This document shows, in pieces, positions 1 through 62,526 of a stretch of 64,000 nt of DNA (positions are counted from its first letter, which is position 1; the number at the start of each line of letters is the position of its first letter). A program made the translations under genes and the position numbers. This DNA comes from Cirrosporium novae-zelandiae (taxonomy: Eukaryota). Where the stretch lies: positions 1-64,000 of the forward strand of contig JAPETS010000011.1 in NCBI GenBank assembly GCA_026023565.1. The letters run 5' to 3'. The notes below the pieces were generated by a model. It was not told the DNA's origin and ran no database searches. It worked only from the letters and a program-made list of their open reading frames with translations.

Positions 1-1206
1 CCAAAATCTTCCAATTAACCAACCAACCCTAATTTACCCCCCCCCCCCCCCCCCTTTTTTTTTTTTTTTTTTACTTTCTTCCTTTTATTCATTCGTTCGT
101 TCCTATATTCATACGTCAGGACTCAATAGGGAGCTTAGTGCAGAAGCTTATGGTTAAAGCTGGTTGATAATGGTAGTAAGGGGGAGAAAGGAGGGAAGGA
201 CAAAAAGGGAAAAGGGCACAAGAAAAGAAGAGATGAAAAAAGAGGGGGAAAAAAAGGAAAAGGAAAAGGAAAAGGAAGGCAAAGGGGGGGATGGATGGGT
301 TTGGATAAAAGGGTTTGATATACTTGGGCTTGGTGAAGCGGAGAGAAGAGGGAGGGGTGGGGATTATGGATTATGGATTATGGATTGTGGATTGTGGGTG
401 TTGACTGTTGTGTTGTATGAAAACTAGCTAGCTCGGACAGGTATTAGTATTAGGATTGGTATTAATATTGGTGTTGGTACTGTATTGAGGATTTCTTTTT
501 TTTGGTGGGTTGAGGGTCGAGTCGATTCCGTTCTTTAGCTGTTCAGTTATACATATACATCCACACACATATATATCCCCTCATGAAACCAACCATCAAA
601 CCATCAAATGAAATTAATCAAGGAACTAGCGATATCGGACTAGAGACTTATAACCTGCTGGTGTGGTGGGAGAAAGAGTGTATGTATATGTATATGTATA
701 TGTTTGTGTGTAGGGGGTGGGTGTAGGTCGAGATTGGATAAGCAAAGTATAAGGCAAAGGAAACCGGTTTCGATTGATGGGATGATGAGGTAATTAGCCA
801 GTTAACTACTTAAGGAATTGGAAAGGGAAAGTAAAAGGGATGGGAATGGGAATGGGAATGGGAATGTGATGTTTTCTCTCTTGTGCAACTATAGACTAGT
901 GAAGTCGGACTGTGGACTGTAGCTAAGTGACGTCGGGGAAGAGAGTGTATATATATATATGTATGTGGGGGGGGGGGGGGGGGGGGGGGGGGGAGGTTGA
1001 GGTAGGATAAGAAAATTTAAGCAAAGCACAAACAAGAATGTGATGTTTCCTCCTTTTTTCGGATTATAGCTAGGTGACGGGGGAGAAGGGCGTGTATATA
1101 TATATACTAGGTTAGATAAACAAAGCCCAAAGGAAAGCAAAGCAAACTAATTTCCAATTGATGGGTTAACCAACAAACTAAAAAGCAAAGGGGAATGCAA
1201 TCCCCC

Positions 1207-13814: not shown

Positions 13815-13901
13815 CCCCTTGTGGTGTAGTTGGATATCACGTTCGGCTGTAATGTCAAAGTTGAAACCGAAAGGTCACCGGCTCGATTCCGGTCGAGGGG
13901 A
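13815..13901 (+). tRNA. tRNA-Tyr(GTA) with a 13-nt intron (13853-13865)
   Basis: Acceptor stem CCCCTTG/CGAGGGG plus discriminator A. A-box TGGTGTAGTTGG. Anticodon stem TTCGG/CCGAA with GTA at 13849-13851. T stem ACCGG/CCGGT. T-run terminator ~25 bp downstream. Confidence 0.93.
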
Positions 13902-14420
13902 ATTGCAAATGCATGAAACATCCAAATTTTTTTCTTCTCTTTTTTTACGGGCCGATGAATGGTTCTTCTTTGGGATTTTTTTAATGATGATTTTTCTATA
14001 CTTATTTTTTACTTCCCCTGGCTATAGATGATAAAAATGATGAAGTAGGTAGTCTAAGTAATTAGGGGAGTTAATCAAGCCTTAGAGTAGGAAATCATTA
14101 TCATCGGCCCCGAATTCCACAAATTTTTCACCATTTCCTTCCCTTGGTTTAGCTGTTCCAGTTCCTCTAACTCCGAACTCTTCTCCTCTTTTATCTCTTT
14201 ATGGAAGTTTCTCATTCATATCCACCATAAATAAACACTGCTCTATGCAATAAAAATTTACCTTTACATTTGCATTATTATTATATTACATATATCAGAC
14301 TAGCCATGGATTCTAAATTTATATATCTATACAGTGATTGTTGATTATTTTTGGAGGGGGGATGTTGTGTGATGTTTTTCGCCGAGGACTGAGGAGGACT
14401 GGCTGGGCTTTCTATTAGCC

Positions 14421-14735
14421 GTCAACTATCATCAACCAACCTACAATTTCATTTTTCTATTTACCTACCGATTACATTATCGAGAATCCCTCCTCCTCCT
14501 CCTCCTCCCATGGAAGTACAGTGATCTGTTGGTTTGCTTTGATTCAATGAAATTTATCTACTTCCGAGTTGCTATATCTCAGTAGTCGCACGATCTACCT
14601 TGGGGTTATGCCCTTGCCTGCGGAGATACAGTAGATCCCAAATGACCGGAATGTAATATTATTTATCTTACAGGCAACTAACTCCTCGATTCTATAATTT
14701 TTTTATTGCATTTAGTTTAGTATGCCATTCTAATA
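14421..14735. repeat. Decayed dispersed-repeat fragment with inverted partners at 17428-17518 and ~21390-21547
   Basis: caatttcatttttcta..ccgattaca..ccctcctcctcccatg matches the reverse complement of 17428-17518. gagttgctatatctcagt..cgcacga..tggggttatgccct..cttacagg matches the reverse complement of ~21420-21547. Confidence 0.8.
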
Positions 14736-16147: not shown

Positions 16148-16951
16148 ATGGACAAGTCCACCACTGTTGATGTTAAGCCTCACATTGTGTTTGTTCCCGG
16201 TGCTTGGCACCTCCCGTATGCTTTTGACACGGTTCGAAAACTTCTAGCCGAGGACGGATACCTTTCTGAAGTACCTGCGTTCCCTTCAGTAGGAGCCGAA
16301 CCTCCAACAAAAACCCTTAATGATGACATCCACCATGTGCATGAAGTTCTAGAGCGACTAGCTAACCAAGGGAAGAAAATTATTGTCGTGGTTCATTCGT
16401 ATGGAGGATTGGTAGGGGCTAGTGCCGTCAAAGGGTTAGAACTTTCTCAGAGGGTGAAACAAGGCAAAGATGGAAGCGTTATTATGTTGGTTTATATGAG
16501 TGCTTTTGTGGTACCGAAAGGGTCAAGTCTGAAGGACATGCTCGGTGGAAAATGGTTACCGTGGATGAAGTTCAATGGCGATTATTGTTGGAGCTCTGAA
16601 CCAGAGACTGCTTTCTACAGCGACCTTGCTCCTTATGAACAAAAGAAATGGATCTCGAAGCTCACGTACACGTCCGCTAGTGTTTTCTCTGACCCGGTTA
16701 CCTATGAACCTTGGCACAGCTTGCCTTGCATGTACCTTTTTTGTGAAAAGGATCAAGGGTTGCCTATTTCTGTGCAGAGGTCGTTTGCCGCTACCCTCAA
16801 AAAGGGGTGTCACTATAATGAGTTCTCATGCCAAGGCTCTCATTCGTCGTTCTTGAGCATGCCGGAAAAGGTTGTTGAGGCTGTGCGAAAAGCATTGCTG
16901 ATCGGTATTAATGCTAGTACTGAGATGAGGGCCCCTAATGGTAATGCATGA
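16148..16951 (+). CDS. Alpha/beta hydrolase (Abhydrolase_6-type), 267 aa, intronless
   Basis: IVFVPGAWH, VVVHSYGG nucleophile elbow, YLFCEKDQ acid, GSHSSFLS histidine. Confidence 0.92.
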   Translation: MDKSTTVDVKPHIVFVPGAWHLPYAFDTVRKLLAEDGYLSEVPAFPSVGAEPPTKTLNDDIHHVHEVLERLANQGKKIIVVVHSYGGLVGASAVKGLELSQRVKQGKDGSVIMLVYMSAFVVPKGSSLKDMLGGKWLPWMKFNGDYCWSSEPETAFYSDLAPYEQKKWISKLTYTSASVFSDPVTYEPWHSLPCMYLFCEKDQGLPISVQRSFAATLKKGCHYNEFSCQGSHSSFLSMPEKVVEAVRKALLIGINASTEMRAPNGNA

Positions 16952-17247
16952 CCTTTGACGTAATTTGGTTCAATCGATAGTGAATGTTATATATACTGAA
17001 TAGATCATATATCAGTATACCCTACCATCAGTCCGTGCGATCAGTTCACTCCATTCTCTGTTCTGTTCAAAGCGAGTTATTTTGGCTATGCTTGTTTCTT
17101 AGATATGATTATTTGCCCTTGGCATTAGATTTGTGTGCTAAGTGATTTTGTAGGTGGGATGTGCAATTGAAATGAAAAGGATCCTGGGTGAGCCTTGGGA
17201 ATAATATATATTGAAAAAGTATGCAAATGGTTAATTAGCTAGTTGGT

Positions 17248-17868
17248 TGGTAGGCTAATTAATGTTACCATTACTAAGACCTTATATTAGATAAACCTCT
17301 GCTAAATGTAAGACTACAACCGCAGTCTTAATGGTGTAAGCTACGTGTGAGAAGATCTGGCACACAAGCTAGGGTATAAAATGTGCAATAGATTACTACT
17401 GAAAAGTTCATCACGCCGTAATTATACCTGCACTTTCATGGGAGGAGGAGGGGCTCTCAGCAGTGTAATCGGTCAAGTAGAAAAATGAAATTGCAGATTG
17501 ATAGTTGATAGTTGATGGAAAGGAGTGCACATGTCGGCCTACCATCCCATGGGCTCGGCCGACCATACGTAAAAAATTAATTGTATGGTCGTATGAACTT
17601 TTATGGGGTCAACACACATCCATAACATTAAATTATGTAAAGCCTATTTTTAGGCATATCTTGGGGCTTACTTGGGGGCTTACTTGAAGGTCGCCGCGGC
17701 TAATTTTTAGCCTAGAAATTTCTATGGTCGGGTGAGCTGCGCAGTCTTTGGTAGCAGTTCTCTTCTTACACGTAGCCTACATCCCTAAGACTACAACCGT
17801 AGTCTTACATATAGCAGATGCCTATCTAATGTGATGTTTTAGTGATCGTAACATTCATTAGCCAACCA
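17248..17868. mobile_element. Non-coding ~620-bp element with ~108-bp imperfect terminal inverted repeats (MITE/foldback-like)
   Basis: 17248-17355 aligns with the reverse complement of 17761-17868 (ggctaat.aatgttac.at.actaa.ac.t.a.attagata..c.tctgcta.atgtaagactac....agtctta...gctacgtgt.agaaga). The right end abuts the break in the neighbouring pseudogene. Confidence 0.75.
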
Positions 17869-17869
17869 C

Positions 17870-18668
17870 ACCCCATCTACAAAAGGTCACCAGACGCGAA
17901 GGACAGGATAATGGATAATGCCGACTGCAGTGATCATAATTATACTCTAGTCGCCAAAGAGGCCACATGGTATGGCTGCTAGGCCCAGCTGGATGAGAGC
18001 GGTTATAAAGCCGCCGATGTAAGGCAGGTCGTAGCCTAGGTGGCCGGGCCGGGCCGAGCCTCTTTTGCCTTACGGAAACGCAGAGGCCGGCTCGCAGCGG
18101 TCGCTCGGGGAGCTGGTTAAGCGGCCCGCCGTATTCCCCGGCCTTTTTCCCCGCATCAGCCTTGATTTTCTCCCATCGCATATTGATTATCTGCTCGAGA
18201 CGACTGCGAATTAGTCTCATCCACGGTTCGTCTTCATCCATCTAAGTCTCGAAGTCTCGCACGATGTAGCCAATGACCCAGCTGTAGTTGTCGCGGACAA
18301 ACCCGTTGCTGCCGTTTATAACCTTGCAGGAACAGTCGGCGACAGGCATCAGCCTATTCTCACCGATGGCGTCCACGACGGTGTTTACCGCGTAGGCTAC
18401 CCAACCCGATGCGATGAAAGGATAAGTAAGAATTAAGTTATAGACTCGGAAAGGAGGTTGGGGACGAGATAGGGCTCGTACCGAAAGAAAAGGCGACCGG
18501 CGTCACGCGAGATCCGGCCAATTGCGCGAGCGCGCGAGCCACCATGTTGCTGCCGAGGATGAAGAGCATAAAAAAGACATCGGCCGGCTATCTCCACTGC
18601 TCCAAGGACCGAGCCGCTAGAGCACCGGGGTGGAAGTCGCGCCGATGAAGTACTGACATTGAAGGCAT
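17870..18668 (-). pseudogene. RIP-like mutated pseudogene of a conserved fungal membrane-protein family of unknown function
   Basis: Reconstructed frame: QWR*PADVFFMLFILGSNMVARALAQLAGSRVTPVAFSFG, intron, WVAYAVNTVVDAIGENRLMP..CKVING..RDNYSWVIGYIVRDFET*MD..AGLCVSV..IQLGLAAIPCGLFGD*SII. Three TAG stops, frameshifts, and a 3' truncation at the element. Confidence 0.8.
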
Positions 18669-18989
18669 CGCATCCAGCCGAGTGTTGGTGCACGCGACGG
18701 CAAAGAAAGCAGTCCACGAGCACAAGCATGAAATATTGAAGGTGGAGAATACCGAAGATTAGGGCCGACGCGAAGCAGCGAGGAGCGTTTCGCTGCTCGG
18801 TATCCCTCGGGCCGATTCTTTTCCGATAACTTTGGGTGGGTGTGCTGTGGGTAGTTTACCATGTGATTTGGCGATGGAGAAACGCTGGCTGTTCCCCAAC
18901 TACTGTGATTGTCGGTGGATTCAGTTGCCTACCGAGGCAAATAATTTGTCTTTTCCTCATCTTAAGGAAAGGAAATTGCAATATTGACA

Positions 18990-21057
18990 TTAAAGGATAG
19001 TGATAATTTGCTCTTCAGAGCTCCAAAACTCCCTTTCGACCTCTGCCTGCATGACGCAAGTGAATAGAGCAACGCGGCGGAAACAGTCATGGTGCAGATC
19101 ATGAACTTTCAGAAGCATGCCAGTCAGTGTCGGCAATTTGTCTTCCTCCGATCTTGGAGAAAACAGTGACTGTTTGGGGGGCCTCAGAGCCAGTGGAAGG
19201 GCCCAGACCTCCTCCTGTTCGCCCTCGCTCTCCACGTCCTCCAAGCGATCGGGATGGCCCCCGCCAATGATGACCAGTTTCCCGTTTGGCGCAGATCTGT
19301 ATAAAAGATTCCGGAACGGATTCCATACCATCTTCATCGACCGGGCCTTGACTTTCAGGAATCCCCCTTTGAGTGCGCCGTATGGCAAGTTGTAATGCTC
19401 AAGGTCAACATGGTAGTCCAAGATGATGCAGCATGCTTCGTGAGGCTCCACCACCGGCCCGGGGTTGTATACGATGCCGTCAACGGAAGCCCAGCTCCAC
19501 GAAGGTGCTCGGTACGCAGTCGGCCCGGGAAGGGGGTCATGACCGGCTTTTGTCCATAACAGGTCGCCGAGAAGATGGTGCTCCCACATACCCGCTACGT
19601 ACCGGCTCTTCAGCCGAAGGTGAAACTCTTCGGCGACCCCAGCTATGGCCTTTAGCCTGTCTTTGGGAGCCGTGAGTGCGCGCGGAGTAAAGTCTTGCAA
19701 GATTCTGTGCCAGAGTTTTGTCATTTCCCGCATGGTCTCCGTGTGAGGAGGGGAGCTGTCTGCTTCTGGATAAAAGAACCGAGGCGAGAGCCTGTCAATC
19801 CCTGTCAATTTGGCCCTGATGAAGCTGTTTCCGATATTCAGCAAGCCACGTTGGCACAGATACTGGAGAGTGTGGGATGCGTATATCAGAGCTCGCGGCG
19901 TAAGAATACGCTCTTCGAGGCACCAACCTCGGGAATTGGTAGGTTCCTTGTCCGCTTCGTACGGATTGCTCATTGCGCGCGGGGAGAGCGTGATGGTCCC
20001 AAGACCTCCATCTGGACAGAAAAAAGGCACAACGAAGGTTGGCAGGAGACGCGGGCAATCCTGTAGAAATCCTATGCTGACCTTTGTTGTCTTAGCGGCA
20101 ATGATAGTGAGGTGGGCGTTTTGAAATATGCGCCGCATGTTCCGAATCTCTTGCACTTTATCGTCAGCAGAATCCTGAATAATGCAATATGAATCGATCC
20201 AGAGGTAGCGAAATTGAAGCTTATGAGTAACGTGCACGGCATCCTTGATTGTTTGTGGTGTTTCGTTCATATTTAGGCCCGAAGTGACGTATTGGATTAT
20301 GTTGTCTGTAGTCGTCTTTTGCGGCTGGTCTTCGCCCCAGACGTAGCTTAAGGTGACATAAGGCTCCTCGATGCCACCTGTGTCGACTTTTAGCTTTGGT
20401 TTTCCTGGATCCTGGCAATCGAGCACGCGGGTGGGCAGAGAGGATTTGATTTGTTTGGGACAGTTCTCGTGACCCTCTCCGTTTCGCAGACATTCATGGA
20501 TGCTCTCTCGTGCGAGACGAACAATGTTCTCTGACTGCATCTCGTAAATAAGAGGCCGGGCCTGAATGAACCTTGAAGCCTCGTCATCTGTTTCTAAGTT
20601 TCAGCAAGGTTCGTCAGTTAAAGACTTGGGTAAGCGTCATACCCGACGGTGTGGAGATAGCAATGCAGGACATAGCTAGAGCTCGATCATCGCGTGCATT
20701 CTCATATTGTGTTATGAGAAACGTCTCCCCATTCCCTTCATGTCGAAATGCCACCACAATGTCTATCTTCTTCTGGCAAAGAAAGTCTGCGTCTGCTCTG
20801 GCCGACTCAGGCGAATACTGTGTCTGGGACTGGTCTTGCATAGTATTAATGACAGCATCCACCTCGGAAAAGATCATGTCGCACCATGCGCACCCCTTCT
20901 GATTCGCTTCTTGAATGTCCCTCCAGCTCATGGTGTAAGAAATCCGCTTCTGCCATGCCTCTCTAAATGATTCGGCATTGAAGAGGTGGCCGTGACAGGT
21001 GGAACAGACTAAATCTTCAACGGGCGAAGACTTAGTCTTCGATATTGAGTAACCCAT
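18990..21057 (-). CDS. HET-domain (heterokaryon incompatibility) protein, 2 exons: 21057-20643, 20587-18990 (~670 aa)
   Basis: LPTRVLD, YVTLSYVWG, PQTIKDAV, YLWIDSYCIIQD, RGWCLEERIL, DRLKAIAGVA, YRAPSWSWASVDG. The GTATGA..CAG intron restores TPSDDEASRFIQARP. Confidence 0.93.
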
Positions 21058-30942: not shown

Positions 30943-31084
30943 CAGGGAAGGGGAATGGACCAAACCAAATAGACGGACTGACCCCGACTGACCAGACCGA
31001 TCAAACCGAGCCTCTCCGTCTGTAGACCGATCAGAGCGAATTCCTCGGTCTGGTCGGTCCGGTCTGGTCCATTTCCCTTCCCTA
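30943..31084. mobile_element. 142-bp hAT-type MITE with 8-bp target-site duplication
   Basis: Left end CAGGGAAGGGGAATGGACCA, right end TGGTCCATTTCCCTTCCCTA. Subterminal GACCA/GACCG repeats. Flanks GGCGCGAG (30935-30942) and AGCGCGAG (31085-31092). Confidence 0.85.
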
Positions 31085-31520
31085 AGCGCGAGAGCGCAGC
31101 GGGGGAGCGAGACGTCAACGTGGCGCGGATGAAACAAGGACCTAAGAAAAAAACAACTAAGAAAAAAATAGGCCTTAGGAGGGCCGTGGTGTTGGGTAGT
31201 GGTGACTTTTAACACTGCACGCTATTTCTCTAGGGTCAAGGTAGTGGGTATAAAAGAAATCAACACTACACTTGCGGCCACCCTATATTGATGGATATGG
31301 ATAAGGTGTCTGGCTTGACTTGGCTTGACTTGCCCTGACTTGGTTTGAAGGCATAAGATATGAGGGAGATTTTTGAAAGTTTGTTGTATGCTACTATTAA
31401 TGCTGCTCTCTTTCCTTCTCATCTTTTTAGGTTTGGGGGTTTTGGGGTTTATGATTTAAGGGGGTTCGGATCCAGGGGGGTATAAGTCTATAGTGGAGTA
31501 CATGTACAGTACATAGAATC

Positions 31521-31713
31521 CAGTGTTGTCAATAGACCAGACCCAGACCCGACCAGTCTGGTATAATCAAAAATAATTTTATAATAAAATAACACGGATT
31601 AGCAGTAATAAAAACGTTCACGACTATTACTACAATAACAATCAAATTACCCGCAGCAATAATTGCCTTCAGACTGGTGTGGTCTGGTCTGGTCTGGTTT
31701 ATTGCCAATACTA
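31521..31713. mobile_element. 193-bp hAT-like MITE
   Basis: Left end CAGTGTTGTCAATAGACCAGACC matches the reverse complement of the right end (TAGTATTGGCAATAAACCAGACC). AT-rich core. No target-site duplication seen. Confidence 0.7.
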
Positions 31714-31749
31714 ATGTCGTAGAAAAAACATAGAAGTGAGGGAATGGAG

Positions 31750-34370
31750 AAAATGGAGAAATTAGAATAGAATAGAAAAGGTTAGGCGCTAAAGAGGTGA
31801 GGAGGTTTGTACTGTATATGTACTGTATATAATATGGGTTATGGGTTATTGGTTATGGATCATGGATCATGGTTATGAACGGTAAGAGTTGGGGTTGGAG
31901 TTTACTGCCAGTATATAATGTAATATGGATATAGGTATAGTATATCCCTAGACAAAGAAAAGGGAGAGAGAGAGAAAAAAGGAAAAAAAAAGGATAGATA
32001 TATTCAAGAATTGTATGGATGTATGGAAGGAACAAAATAGATAGATACATGGGATACATGGAAGAAGAAAGGACGAGTACTTTCTATCTACTCTAATTAT
32101 TAATTCTAATTCCAGTTCCATTTCCAATTTTTAAGAATTTAAGAATTTTAAGAATTGGATATATATATATATATATCTTATTTATAGAAAAGGAGTAAAA
32201 CTGTGAAAAATAGATAGATAAATATTATAGGGGAGAGAAATAGATATAGACATAAAAAAGGGAGATGAGGGGATATAGAGATAGGGGGGAGGGATAGGGA
32301 GTGTATATGTATATGTAAGAAGGTTTGGGTTTGGGTTTAATGCTTTCTAGTGGTGTATTGGGTAATTGGTGGGTGTAGTGAGTAAGCAAGGTAGGTAATG
32401 GGGTATATAATGGGGTAATAGGTAGATAAAGAATATTATTATCGTATCGTATCCTATTTTATATATATCCCACCTCACCACCTCACCACCTTATCTCACA
32501 GCACACCCCTCTCCTCTCCCACCCAACAACTTCTTTAACCCTCCCAACGAAAAAAATATATAAAATTATACACTACACTTATACTTTACACTACACTCCA
32601 ACCCATCCCAACCCATCCATCCCATCCATCCCATCCATACCATGCCCTACCACACTCCAATCCTATTATATATATTTATTAGGGTTATCTATTCTTATAT
32701 ATTATAATTTTAATAGTTTAGTTGGTTAGTTATTTTTTTTAGGGATTTAGTATAGGATAATATATAGGGAGAGTAGAGGAGAAGGGGAGGGATATAGGAT
32801 ATAATGTGTGGTATGTGGTGTGGGATATAAGGGGGGGGGGGGGGGGGGGGGGGGGGGGTGATAGGTATATAAGTAGGTAGGTAGGAAATAAATAAATAAG
32901 GTAGTGGGTGGATGTTATATAATATATGAACATGATGGGTAATAGGTAGTGAGAGATGTTTATTATCGTATTTATATCCCACATCCATACCCATACCCAT
33001 ACCATCCTACCTTATCCCATAATACCACCTCATCTCACAATACCCCTTCCCACCCTCTCACCCAATCCCCTACGTAACCAACAAACTTCCTTGACCACCT
33101 CCAAACACCCAACCAATCCATTCATCCTATCTATGCTATATTAACCTGTGTTCCAATCCTATTATACATATACATACATATATACAATATTAGGGCTATT
33201 CTTCTAAATTATAATTTTTAATAACGTAGTCAGCTTAGTCAGTCAGGAAATTAGGAGGTTATCTTTTTGATATAGGGAAAGGGTAGGAGGAAGAGGAGGA
33301 GGGAAAGGGTATATATATAACAGGATTTAGGATTAGATTGGGGATTCTGGTGGGTGGGTGGTATATGGTAGACTATATAATATATAGTATGTGACGACGG
33401 GTGATAGATAATAGGCGGTTCATTATCACATCCCCCCCCCCCCATATTTCCATTCTTCATAATATCCATTCCTCCACCACCACCACGCCCCAAATCATCC
33501 CAAGTCATACATATACACATACATATCCCTCCCACCTTAGTATCCCTCAACTCAACTCAACTCAGCTCAGATAACCCCAGATAAGATAGATAGATAAATA
33601 GATATATCCCCATATTCCTTCCTTCTTAGCTTGAAATTTCCACTTACCCAAAAAGAAGAGAAAAAATGAAGAGTATTTTATGAGCTTGTCTTTTTATATT
33701 TTAACAACAATTGAGTTGATTGAAATTTGAAAATCCTGATTTCTTTTTTTTTTTTTTTGGTTTTTTGGAAGGGGGGGGGGGTTGGTGTTGAGATTGTATT
33801 TATGGTTGTATGTATGGCTGGTTATGGATGGATGGAGAGATTGGATAATATAGTGTAGGGAAATAGTGCAAAGGTGAGAGGGTGGTTAGGTAGATAGATG
33901 GATGGATGGATGGATAACAAAGAAATAGGAATATATTGTTATTGTCATTATCATCATCATCTTCTCCTTTTTCTTTTTCTTGATATTATATCATATCCAT
34001 CAACCCCCCCCCCTCCCCTTCTCTCCCTTCAACCCCTAGCCCTCAAAAAATCCAAAACCCAAAACTCAAAACTCGAAAAACCTCAAGCTCAAATAATAAA
34101 CCTAAAACATCCCATTTTATTTCATTGATTGATTGATTGATTGATTGATTGATACATGTACATTTATCATAGATTCCACACCACACTTAATGCTGATCCC
34201 CTATCCTATCCCTATACATCATACACATGAGAGGAGAGATTTTTTCTTTTCTTTTCTTTTCTTTGGAAAAAGGTTTTTGAGACATCGTAAACAACATACA
34301 TACATACACACTCGCACACACTCACACACCCATTCATCCACCCATTCATCCATCCATCCATGCTGAAAAA
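31750..34370. repeat. Low-complexity spacer with microsatellites, a poly-G tract and a decayed ~500-bp duplication
   Basis: (AT)n, (CATC)n, (GATT)n repeats and a G-run at 32831-32858. tccaatcctattata..ttaggg.tat..attataatttt occurs at ~32656 and ~33152. Confidence 0.65.

Positions 34371-62492: not shown

Positions 62493-62526
<34 letters not shown>

What the first reader, a model, noticed from the sequence alone, without database searches (positions are those of the whole stretch)
17248..17868. Inverted-repeat element whose two ends carry a palindromic site with the spacer in direct orientation
Seen: each ~108-bp inverted end holds a 22-bp site with 9-bp palindromic arms around a 4-bp asymmetric spacer: TAAGACTAC-AACC-GCAGTCTTA (17309-17330) and TAAGACTAC-AACC-GTAGTCTTA (17786-17807). 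The surrounding ends are inverted, so one spacer should read GGTT on the + strand, yet both read AACC. One spacer has therefore flipped relative to its flanks. Inference: either a hairpin-loop micro-inversion by template switching, or an arm-spacer-arm recombinase/resolvase-type site. The 4-bp spacer is shorter than the 6-8 bp typical of tyrosine recombinase sites. The interior has further hairpins, e.g. CGACCATAC..GTATGGTCG at ~17560-17591.
Basis: partly seen in the sequence, partly recalled or inferred. Interest (0 to 1): 0.7.

Follow-up and report, generated by a model that had tools for sequence, protein, structure and literature searches.

The report
Flipped hairpin loop in decayed fungal transposon
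A worn-out, non-coding mobile element in a fungal chromosome has a small hairpin in each of its two inverted ends, and the four-base loop of one hairpin has turned over, which is most likely an ordinary DNA-copying slip and not a recombination site.

Summary
A 108-nt inverted repeat (17248-17355 / 17761-17868, 80% complementary) bounds a 621-bp non-coding element. Each arm holds the 22-mer TAAGACTAC-AACC-GYAGTCTTA, and both copies read the same way on the + strand. When the arms are aligned, the spacers are AACC against GGTT, an exact reverse complement.

The window is nuclear DNA of a filamentous ascomycete (HET, CLU and Kri1 genes). Parts of the element recur, diverged, in other contigs of the same organism. 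I therefore read it as a decayed MITE-like relic with long terminal inverted repeats. Its build resembles the Mutator-type MITEs of Epichloe, but no target-site duplication could be found.

The flipped spacer is best explained by a single hairpin-loop micro-inversion (template switching, or recombination between the 9-bp arms). One other copy reads TGTT where the left arm reads AACC, so the left arm is probably the one that flipped.

Rivals:
- Four transitions from a GGCC centre. This is weak.
- A recombinase site. The spacer is 4 bp, 0 of 41 ORFs of 120 aa or more match a recombinase or transposase family, and no rearranged contig was seen.

This is a known kind of event and of low interest.

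The parts
17248..17355 (+). Left terminal inverted repeat (may start about 17245)
   Evidence: the repeat finder I1, 108 nt at 80%. Alignments. nhmmer profile hit 17245-17374.
17761..17868 (-). Right terminal inverted repeat (may end about 17872)
   Evidence: nhmmer profile hit 17872-17740.
17309..17330 (+). Left 22-bp hairpin site: arms 17309-17317 and 17322-17330 (8 of 9 paired), loop AACC at 17318-17321. Probably the flipped copy.
   Evidence: Polarity comes from the loose end before 17322, where another copy reads TGTT at the loop in the same outer-to-inner orientation.
17786..17807 (+). Right 22-bp hairpin site: arms 17786-17794 and 17799-17807 (9 of 9 paired), loop AACC on the + strand, which is GGTT read from the element's end inward
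   Evidence: DNA fold -6.5 kcal/mol, z -8.3.
17356..17760 (.). Non-coding core with small tandem duplications (17498-17516, 17660-17686) and short hairpins
   Evidence: The longest stop-to-stop frames are 65 aa or less. The two longest have no Pfam match. Tandem repeats.
17560..17591 (+). Interior hairpin: 9-bp perfect stem, 14-nt loop
   Evidence: Sequence. DNA fold -8.8 kcal/mol, z -4.9.
17553..17567 (+). Inner inverted repeat, left copy (partner at 17723-17737)
   Evidence: the repeat finder I2, 15 nt at 87%.
17723..17737 (-). Inner inverted repeat, right copy
14381..14524 (-). Separate fragment related to the core (17425-17559). It has no terminal repeat beside it.
   Evidence: blastn 79% over 81 nt. 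Alignment. nhmmer E 4.4e-12.

Best explanation
The 621-bp stretch is a decayed, non-autonomous cut-and-paste transposon relic (MITE-like) with terminal inverted repeats of about 108-112 bp. It lies between genes in a filamentous ascomycete chromosome. Each terminal repeat carries, about 60 bp in from its tip, a short palindrome that can form a hairpin with a 9-bp stem and a 4-nt loop.

In one terminal repeat, probably the left one, the loop was replaced by its own reverse complement in a single mutational event. Either the polymerase switched template across the hairpin during replication or repair, or the two 9-bp arms recombined. Because the arms are palindromic, only the 4 loop bases show the event. 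The two sites therefore now read alike on the + strand, although everything around them is inverted.

What is shown: the anatomy, the exact reverse-complement relation, the dispersed partial copies, and the absence of coding capacity. What is inferred: the transposon origin, the mechanism of the flip, and which arm flipped. The element and the flip most likely have no present function.
For: - Inverted repeat of 108 nt at 80%, E 3.6e-22. The whole element folds arm on arm as single-stranded DNA, z -5.96, with the spacer positions left unpaired.
- Spacers AACC against GGTT are exact reverse complements between aligned arms.
- Outside the spacer, only 18 of 104 aligned positions differ (11 transitions, 7 transversions). 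Four adjacent transitions in the one pattern that mimics an inversion would have a chance of about 0.106^4 x 4/16, roughly 3e-5 by my arithmetic. One inversion explains all four.
- Host: HET domain (PF06985, 4.4e-28), CLU, Kri1 and eIF3_p135 genes in the window.
- Dispersed family: in run X1 (35.7 Mb of contigs, probably the source of the window) 8 contigs were laid. One is the locus itself. The others match only parts of the element at 80% or more: 17322-17355, 17365-17412 (3 contigs) and 17755-17798 (2 contigs). Their loose ends continue in sequence that looks like a diverged terminal repeat.
- Polarity: the contig laid on 17322-17355 reads ...TAAGGCTGC TGTT just before 17322. It therefore has the hairpin too, with a loop one letter from GGTT and unlike AACC (compared by eye).
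- No coding capacity: frames are 65 aa or less, with no Pfam match.
- Loop-only inversions at perfect hairpins, typically with 4-nt loops, are documented as template-switch mutations (69 cases; PMC8794818, passages). Small inversions of 4-50 bp at hairpins are documented as pervasive in plastid DNA (PMC12371153, passages).
- Ascomycete MITEs with terminal repeats of 115-116 bp at 81-93% identity are described (EFT-24m and EFT-26m; PMC3227409, passages).
Against: - No target-site duplication was found at any plausible pair of ends. The best direct repeat (10 nt, 1 mismatch) lies 12 bp outside the left terminal repeat and 41 bp outside the right one, and is at chance level for the space searched.
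- No full-length second copy was seen. Other contigs match only 34-48 nt pieces at 80% or more.
- No autonomous partner could be sought, because no genome is held for this window.
- The polarity argument rests on a single other copy whose second arm I could not read letter by letter. Four of the 34 aligned letters differ at unknown places.
- All four spacer differences are transitions, so a point-mutation route is not strictly excluded.
- The left site, proposed as the flipped one, has a stem mismatch next but one to the loop. A template switch reaching into the stem would have erased it, so a later G-to-A change, or switch points right at the loop, must be assumed.
Confidence: 0.72

Rival explanations
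1. No inversion took place. The ancestral site was a perfect 22-bp palindrome with a GGCC centre. Transitions (RIP-like C-to-T and G-to-A) changed GG to AA on the + strand in both sites, so each arm differs from the ancestor by two point mutations.
For: - All 4 spacer differences are transitions.
- Transitions dominate in this family: 11 to 7 in the arms outside the spacer and 14 to 4 in the core fragment pair.
- The arms have RIP-like dinucleotide indices: TpA/ApT of 2.0 and 1.4, and (CpA+TpG)/(ApC+GpT) of 0.69 and 0.88.
- Compared by eye with the other copy, the window's arms carry TpA where that copy has TpG.
Against: - It needs four events in the one pattern that mimics an inversion, about 3e-5 from the observed transition rate (my arithmetic), plus a specific GGCC ancestor.
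- The required changes fall in CpG and CpC contexts. Outside the spacer, 0 of 11 transitions are in CpG and 2 of 11 in CpC.
- The other copy reads TGTT, not GGCC or an intermediate.
- There is no CpA bias overall, and the indices come from sequences of only 108 nt.
Confidence: 0.06
2. The two 22-bp sites are arm-spacer-arm targets of a site-specific recombinase. Their spacers are in direct orientation, so recombination between them would excise the 477-bp segment.
For: Only the shape supports it: 9-4-9 palindromic arms around an asymmetric spacer, present twice and 21 of 22 letters identical in direct orientation.
Against: - The host is a filamentous fungus.
- The spacer is 4 bp, against 6-8 bp in lox, FRT and dif-type sites (recalled knowledge).
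- 0 of 41 ORFs of 120 aa or more in the 64-kb window, and 0 of 6 shorter frames beside or within the element, match a recombinase, integrase or transposase family.
- The one run that holds the locus gives a single contig with the window's arrangement. The only joint it shows comes from the unrelated core fragment at 14.4 kb. Contigs cannot show rare forms.
- The other copy has different arm letters and a different spacer.
- The sites sit inside decaying terminal repeats (20% divergence), with a stem mismatch in one.
Confidence: 0.02
3. The structure is not a transposon. It is a local inverted duplication (a foldback) in an intergenic region, and pieces of it resemble other genomic repeats. The loop flip is still a hairpin micro-inversion.
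For: - No target-site duplication.
- No full-length second copy at 80% or more.
- The core fragment at 14381-14524 lacks terminal repeats.
- There is a nested inner inverted repeat, 17553-17567 / 17723-17737.
Against: - At least 6 other contigs carry the inner part of the terminal repeat, or the core next to it, and their loose ends continue into diverged terminal-repeat-like sequence. This is what a dispersed old family looks like.
- The anatomy matches the long-terminal-repeat MITEs described in ascomycetes (PMC3227409).
Confidence: 0.15

Closest known systems
Hairpin-loop micro-inversions: template-switch (quasi-palindrome) mutations (Monttinen and Loytynoja 2022, PMC8794818) and small inversions at hairpins in plastid non-coding DNA (Kelchner and Wendel 1996, cited in PMC12371153)
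   Same: A short perfect or near-perfect inverted repeat flanks a loop of a few bases. The loop is replaced by its exact reverse complement and the flanks are untouched. PMC8794818 (passages) reports 69 loop-only inversions, typically of 4-nt loops. PMC12371153 (passages) gives 4-50 bp inversions helped by hairpins.
   Different: Here the hairpin lies in nuclear DNA of a fungus, inside a transposon's terminal repeat. The event shows up as a discordance between the two ends of one element, not between species. The mechanism is inferred here, not observed.
Mutator-type MITEs of ascomycetes with long terminal inverted repeats (EFT-24m and EFT-26m of Epichloe festucae; Hop-related), Fleetwood et al. 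2011, PMC3227409
   Same: Non-coding elements of a few hundred bp, degenerate, found near genes, with terminal repeats of about 115 bp at 81-93% identity (table read). Here the terminal repeats are 108 bp at 80%, the element is 621 bp, and it lies 297 bp downstream of an alpha/beta-hydrolase ORF.
   Different: No 9-bp target-site duplication was found. No sequence comparison with those families was possible, because the paper's supplements are not held. The superfamily is therefore open.
lox / FRT / dif-type recombinase core sites (recalled knowledge)
   Same: Two inverted arms around an asymmetric spacer whose orientation would decide between excision and inversion.
   Different: The spacer is 4 bp and not 6-8 bp. 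No recombinase was found nearby. The host is a eukaryote. The sites are decaying and no rearranged form was seen.
   Same: The same situation in another fungal genome: a hairpin in each transposon arm, with one loop turned over.
   Different: A different genome and element, with 12-8-12 sites. It is not independent evidence.

Membership tests
MITE / non-autonomous TIR DNA transposon | Terminal inverted repeats | tested here: met
   108 nt at 80%, E 3.6e-22.
MITE / non-autonomous TIR DNA transposon | Target-site duplication flanking the ends | tested here: not met
   A scan of all end pairs 17205-17261 x 17855-17914 for direct repeats of 2-10 nt found none that abuts symmetric terminal-repeat ends. 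The best (10 nt, 1 mismatch) is offset 12 bp and 41 bp from the two ends. At 20% terminal-repeat divergence a short duplication could have decayed.
MITE / non-autonomous TIR DNA transposon | No coding capacity, small size | tested here: met
   621 bp. Stop-to-stop frames are 65 aa or less. The 2 interior frames tested have no Pfam match.
MITE / non-autonomous TIR DNA transposon | Multiple dispersed copies of similar size | tested here: inconclusive
   Besides the locus itself, 7 contigs of run X1 match parts of 34-48 nt at 80% or more (6 are shown in the table). No full-length copy was seen at that threshold. There is no other terminal-repeat copy within the window.
Mutator-like MITE (EFT-24m / EFT-26m type) | Long terminal repeats (about 100 bp or more) | tested here: met
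   108-112 bp, against 115-116 bp in PMC3227409.
Mutator-like MITE (EFT-24m / EFT-26m type) | 9-bp target-site duplication | tested here: not met
   no 9-mer with 2 or fewer mismatches at ends consistent with the terminal-repeat alignment.
Mutator-like MITE (EFT-24m / EFT-26m type) | Terminal-repeat similarity to an autonomous MULE with a MuDR/Hop-type transposase | not testable with these tools
   No genome is held for the window. No fungal DNA collection is on hand. There is no transposase in the window.
Hairpin-loop micro-inversion (template-switch mutation) | The difference is the exact reverse complement of the loop, bounded by inverted arms, with collinear flanks | tested here: met
   AACC against GGTT between 9-nt arms, with the arms and flanks aligned.
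Hairpin-loop micro-inversion (template-switch mutation) | An outgroup copy shows one state as ancestral and the other as derived in a single step | tested here: inconclusive
   One other copy reads TGTT, close to GGTT, in the orientation of the left arm (loose end before 17322). It is a single copy, compared by eye, and its second arm was not read letter by letter.
Site-specific recombinase target (lox/FRT/dif/res-like) | Spacer (overlap region) of 6-8 bp | tested here: not met
   The spacer is 4 bp. The 6-8 bp figure is recalled knowledge.
Site-specific recombinase target (lox/FRT/dif/res-like) | A cognate recombinase encoded nearby or in the element | tested here: not met
   0 of 41 ORFs of 120 aa or more, and 0 of 6 shorter frames, match a recombinase or integrase family in Pfam. 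The rest of the genome could not be searched.
Site-specific recombinase target (lox/FRT/dif/res-like) | Recombined products (excision or inversion between the sites) | tested here: inconclusive
   Contigs of run X1 show only the window's arrangement. Contigs drop rare variants and no raw reads were available.
RIP-mutated repeat | Excess of C-to-T / G-to-A changes with a CpA preference, and skewed dinucleotide indices | tested here: inconclusive
   The arm indices are RIP-like and the core's are not. Transitions to transversions are 11 to 7 outside the spacer. Contexts are CA 5, CT 4, CC 2, CG 0, which is no clear CpA bias. The sequences are very short.

The most novel reading that the evidence does not exclude
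The direct orientation of the two spacers might not be an accident. It could be a conserved property of the family: an asymmetric 9-4-9 site in each terminal repeat, read by a fungal recombinase or an unusual transposase, so that the core can be excised or the ends told apart. My evidence rests on one locus and a glimpse of one other copy, so it cannot exclude this.
Probability: 0.02. Interest if true: 0.7.

Novelty: new member of a known kind. Interest (0 to 1): 0.12.

Why it matters
It matters little. It is a clean eukaryotic nuclear example of a hairpin-loop inversion, and it is visible within one element because the two terminal repeats serve as each other's control. Such events can be mistaken for clustered point mutations or for recombinase sites. 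They are worth masking when transposon ends are aligned or dated. If the family alignment showed many independent flips, the element could serve to estimate the rate of template-switch mutation in a fungal genome.

Tried and rejected
- Own-genome search: no genome is held for this window.
- Plasmid collection, distant blastn of the element: no match. This is a prokaryote-centred collection, so it says little.
- Metagenome scan with the degenerate 22-mer (arms fixed, spacer free): 73 loci. blastn of the element against all 73 found nothing beyond the 22-35 nt around the pattern (best E 0.007), so these are chance palindromes and not relatives.
- Earlier findings by sequence and by place: nothing.
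- Sequencing runs: 3 were listed, only X1 holds the stretch, and it may be the source. No RNA holder was listed. X2 and X3 laid nothing.
- Inversion or excision of the core: no such joint appears in X1's contigs. The one 'opposite strands' joint (17100 to 17428) arises because the same contig also carries the 14.4-kb core fragment. The 'put in' rows at 17450-17473 belong to that fragment too.
- nhmmer with a profile of the two arms and with the whole element against the window: no further terminal-repeat copy.
- Target-site duplication scan: nothing convincing.
- Strand-uniform RIP as the cause of the direct spacers: rejected. Outside the spacer, 5 transitions fit the one-strand pattern and 6 contradict it (from the list).
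- A perfect 9-bp-stem hairpin is not rare in itself: about 5 distinct sites in the window against about 2 per shuffle.
- Supplements of PMC3227409, which might hold MITE consensus sequences for a direct comparison, are not held.

Full report
**Observation.** The region was read directly and scanned for repeats.
- The arms 17248-17355 and 17761-17868 form a 108-nt inverted repeat, 80% complementary, 405 nt apart. Within the window blastn gives 79.6% identity and E 3.6e-22.
- The 22-mer TAAGACTAC-AACC-GYAGTCTTA occurs at 17309-17330 and at 17786-17807, both on the + strand. There are 2 matches at up to 3 mismatches, against 0.00 expected in 100 shuffles.
- Aligning the left arm with the reverse complement of the right arm puts the two sites in register. 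The 9-nt arms align, and the four spacer positions read AACC against GGTT. All four differ and the two are exact reverse complements.
- Two refinements. The left site's stem has one mismatch, so it folds at -3.6 kcal/mol against -6.5 for the perfect right site. All four spacer differences are transitions, which opens a rival route by point mutation.

**Where it lies.** No whole genome is held for the window.
- ORFs in the window carry a HET domain (PF06985, 4.4e-28), CLU, Kri1, eIF3_p135 with TPR, VASt/PH, a fungal AAA winged helix, a mitochondrial carrier and ankyrin repeats. This is nuclear DNA of a filamentous ascomycete.
- The element sits in non-coding DNA, 297 bp downstream of an alpha/beta-hydrolase ORF (16148-16951, +). 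On its other side is a GC-rich stretch and then a HET-domain ORF (18990-20540, -).
- Its own frames are 65 aa or less and match no family.
- None of the 41 ORFs of 120 aa or more in the window (12, 29) matches a transposase, integrase or recombinase family.

**Is it a repeat family?** Within the window the only relative is a 140-nt piece of the core (17425-17559 against 14381-14524 on the minus strand, nhmmer E 4.4e-12). It has no terminal repeat beside it.

One public run holds the locus: X1, 35.7 Mb of contigs, possibly the very source of the window. Laying its contigs on 17100-18000 at 80% likeness gave 8 contigs:
- One contig is the locus itself, with 0 other letters.
- The others match only short parts: 17322-17355 (1 contig), 17365-17412 (3 contigs) and 17755-17798 (2 contigs). 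One more is not shown.
- Their loose ends continue in sequence that, by eye, resembles the inner part of the terminal repeats with many substitutions and small indels.

The element therefore belongs to an old, diverged, low-copy dispersed family. No full-length second copy was seen at that threshold. Two other organisms of the same study (X2, X3) laid nothing.

**What kind of element.** The build is that of a MITE-like non-autonomous DNA transposon: long terminal inverted repeats, a small size, no coding capacity, a position near genes, and diverged dispersed relatives.
- Ascomycete MITEs with terminal repeats of 115-116 bp at 81-93% identity are described in Epichloe festucae. They are assigned to Mutator by their 9-bp target-site duplication (EFT-24m and EFT-26m; PMC3227409, table and passages read).
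- I could not show membership. A scan of all plausible end pairs found no duplication that abuts symmetric ends.
- The paper's supplements, which might hold consensus sequences, are not held.
- The superfamily stays open, and a non-mobile local inverted duplication remains a minority alternative.

**The flipped spacer.** I compared three readings.

(A) One micro-inversion of the hairpin loop.
- The change is confined to the loop of a 9-bp-stem hairpin and is an exact reverse complement. This is the signature of inter-strand or intra-strand template switching, or of recombination between the two arms.
- Monttinen and Loytynoja (PMC8794818; passages) report 69 loop-only inversions at perfectly pairing hairpins, typically with four-nucleotide loops.
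- A review of plastid rearrangements (PMC12371153; passages) describes 4-50 bp inversions at hairpins as pervasive, citing Kelchner and Wendel 1996.

(B) Four transitions from a GGCC centre.
- Outside the spacer, 11 of 104 aligned positions are transitions.
- Four adjacent transitions in one of the 4 of 16 arrangements that mimic an inversion have a chance of about 3e-5, by my arithmetic.
- A GGCC ancestor must also be assumed.
- The changes would fall in CpG and CpC contexts, which account for 0 and 2 of the 11 other transitions.
- A RIP process acting on one strand over the whole element would neatly produce direct spacers. However, outside the spacer 5 transitions fit that pattern and 6 contradict it (list).

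(C) A recombinase site.
- Only the arm-spacer-arm shape speaks for it.
- The spacer is 4 bp.
- The host is a fungus.
- No recombinase is encoded in the 64 kb.
- The sites lie in decaying repeats.
- The contigs show a single arrangement. The only 'opposite strands' joint is produced by the 14.4-kb core fragment lying on the same contig. Contigs cannot show rare forms, so this last point is weak.

**Which arm flipped.**
- The contig laid on 17322-17355 carries, immediately before 17322, a loose end that finishes ...TAAGGCTGC TGTT.
- That copy therefore has the hairpin's first arm (two G where the window has A) and a loop, TGTT. The loop is one letter from GGTT, the state of the right arm read from its tip inward, and it is unlike the AACC of the left arm.
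- By eye, 19 of the 30 loose letters agree with the right arm's reverse complement, and most disagreements are G in that copy against A in the window.
- This suggests an ancestral xGTT, a flip in the left arm, and later G-to-A or C-to-T changes in the stems. One of these would account for the left stem's mismatch.
- It is one copy, read by eye, and I could not read its second arm letter by letter, so I hold this loosely.

**Controls and dead ends.**
- A scan of the metagenome collection with the degenerate 22-mer gave 73 loci. None is similar to the element beyond the pattern itself.
- The plasmid collection gave nothing.
- The whole element folds arm on arm as single-stranded DNA (z -5.96), with the spacer positions unpaired.
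- Perfect 9-bp-stem hairpins with short loops are only mildly enriched in the window: about 5 distinct sites against about 2 per shuffle. The hairpin itself is therefore unremarkable.
- RIP indices are suggestive in the arms but rest on 108 nt each.

**Earlier notes of this scan.** A look-up by words shows that flipped hairpin loops in small mobile elements have been met repeatedly in other genomes, including a decayed fungal transposon with 12-8-12 sites (e1-7785694). These are unchecked AI notes and I did not use them as evidence. They do show that this is a recurrent, ordinary pattern.

**Verdict.**
- The element is a decayed long-terminal-repeat MITE-like relic of undetermined superfamily.
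- Both the element type and the mutation type are known kinds, so interest is low.
- The decisive test is a family-wide table of loop orientation per terminal repeat in the whole genome and its relatives. It could not be run here because no fungal genome collection is on hand.

Noticed in passing
window 968-993, 32831-32858, 62494-62518, 37-72: There are very long homopolymer tracts: about 26-28 G or C, and C18 followed by T18. They are often next to TA/TG-rich microsatellite-like sequence and sit in AT-rich, gene-poor stretches. They pair with each other as 'inverted repeats' only because of the homopolymers.
   Followed up: no
window 13815-13901 (+): Rfam finds a tRNA (49.5 bits, 87 nt) that ARAGORN does not report. 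It is probably an intron-containing eukaryotic tRNA gene. It lies about 500 bp from the 14381-14524 repeat fragment.
   Followed up: no
window 14381-14524 (-): This is an isolated fragment of about 140 nt related to the element's core. It has an expanded GGA repeat and mostly transition differences (14 transitions to 4 transversions), and no terminal repeat beside it.
   Followed up: partly
window 31001-33000: These are the only 1-kb bins of the window with RIP-like indices (TpA/ApT above 1 and (CpA+TpG)/(ApC+GpT) below 1). GC is 35-42%, and several low-complexity repeats lie there. This could be a degraded repeat island.
   Followed up: no
window 17336-17344 and 17772-17780: A second small palindrome (GTAGGCTAC in the right arm's reverse complement, GTAAGCTAC in the left arm) lies 5 nt inward of the 22-mer. 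TAAG..CTAC-like motifs recur 3-4 times in each terminal repeat (read). They may be subterminal binding-site repeats.
   Followed up: no
window 17858-18241 (-): A 127-aa ORF ends 10 nt inside the right terminal repeat. Its tail is Arg/Pro-rich and it has no Pfam match, so it is probably not a real gene as drawn. The GC-rich stretch 17900-18990 has several open frames that match no family.
   Followed up: partly
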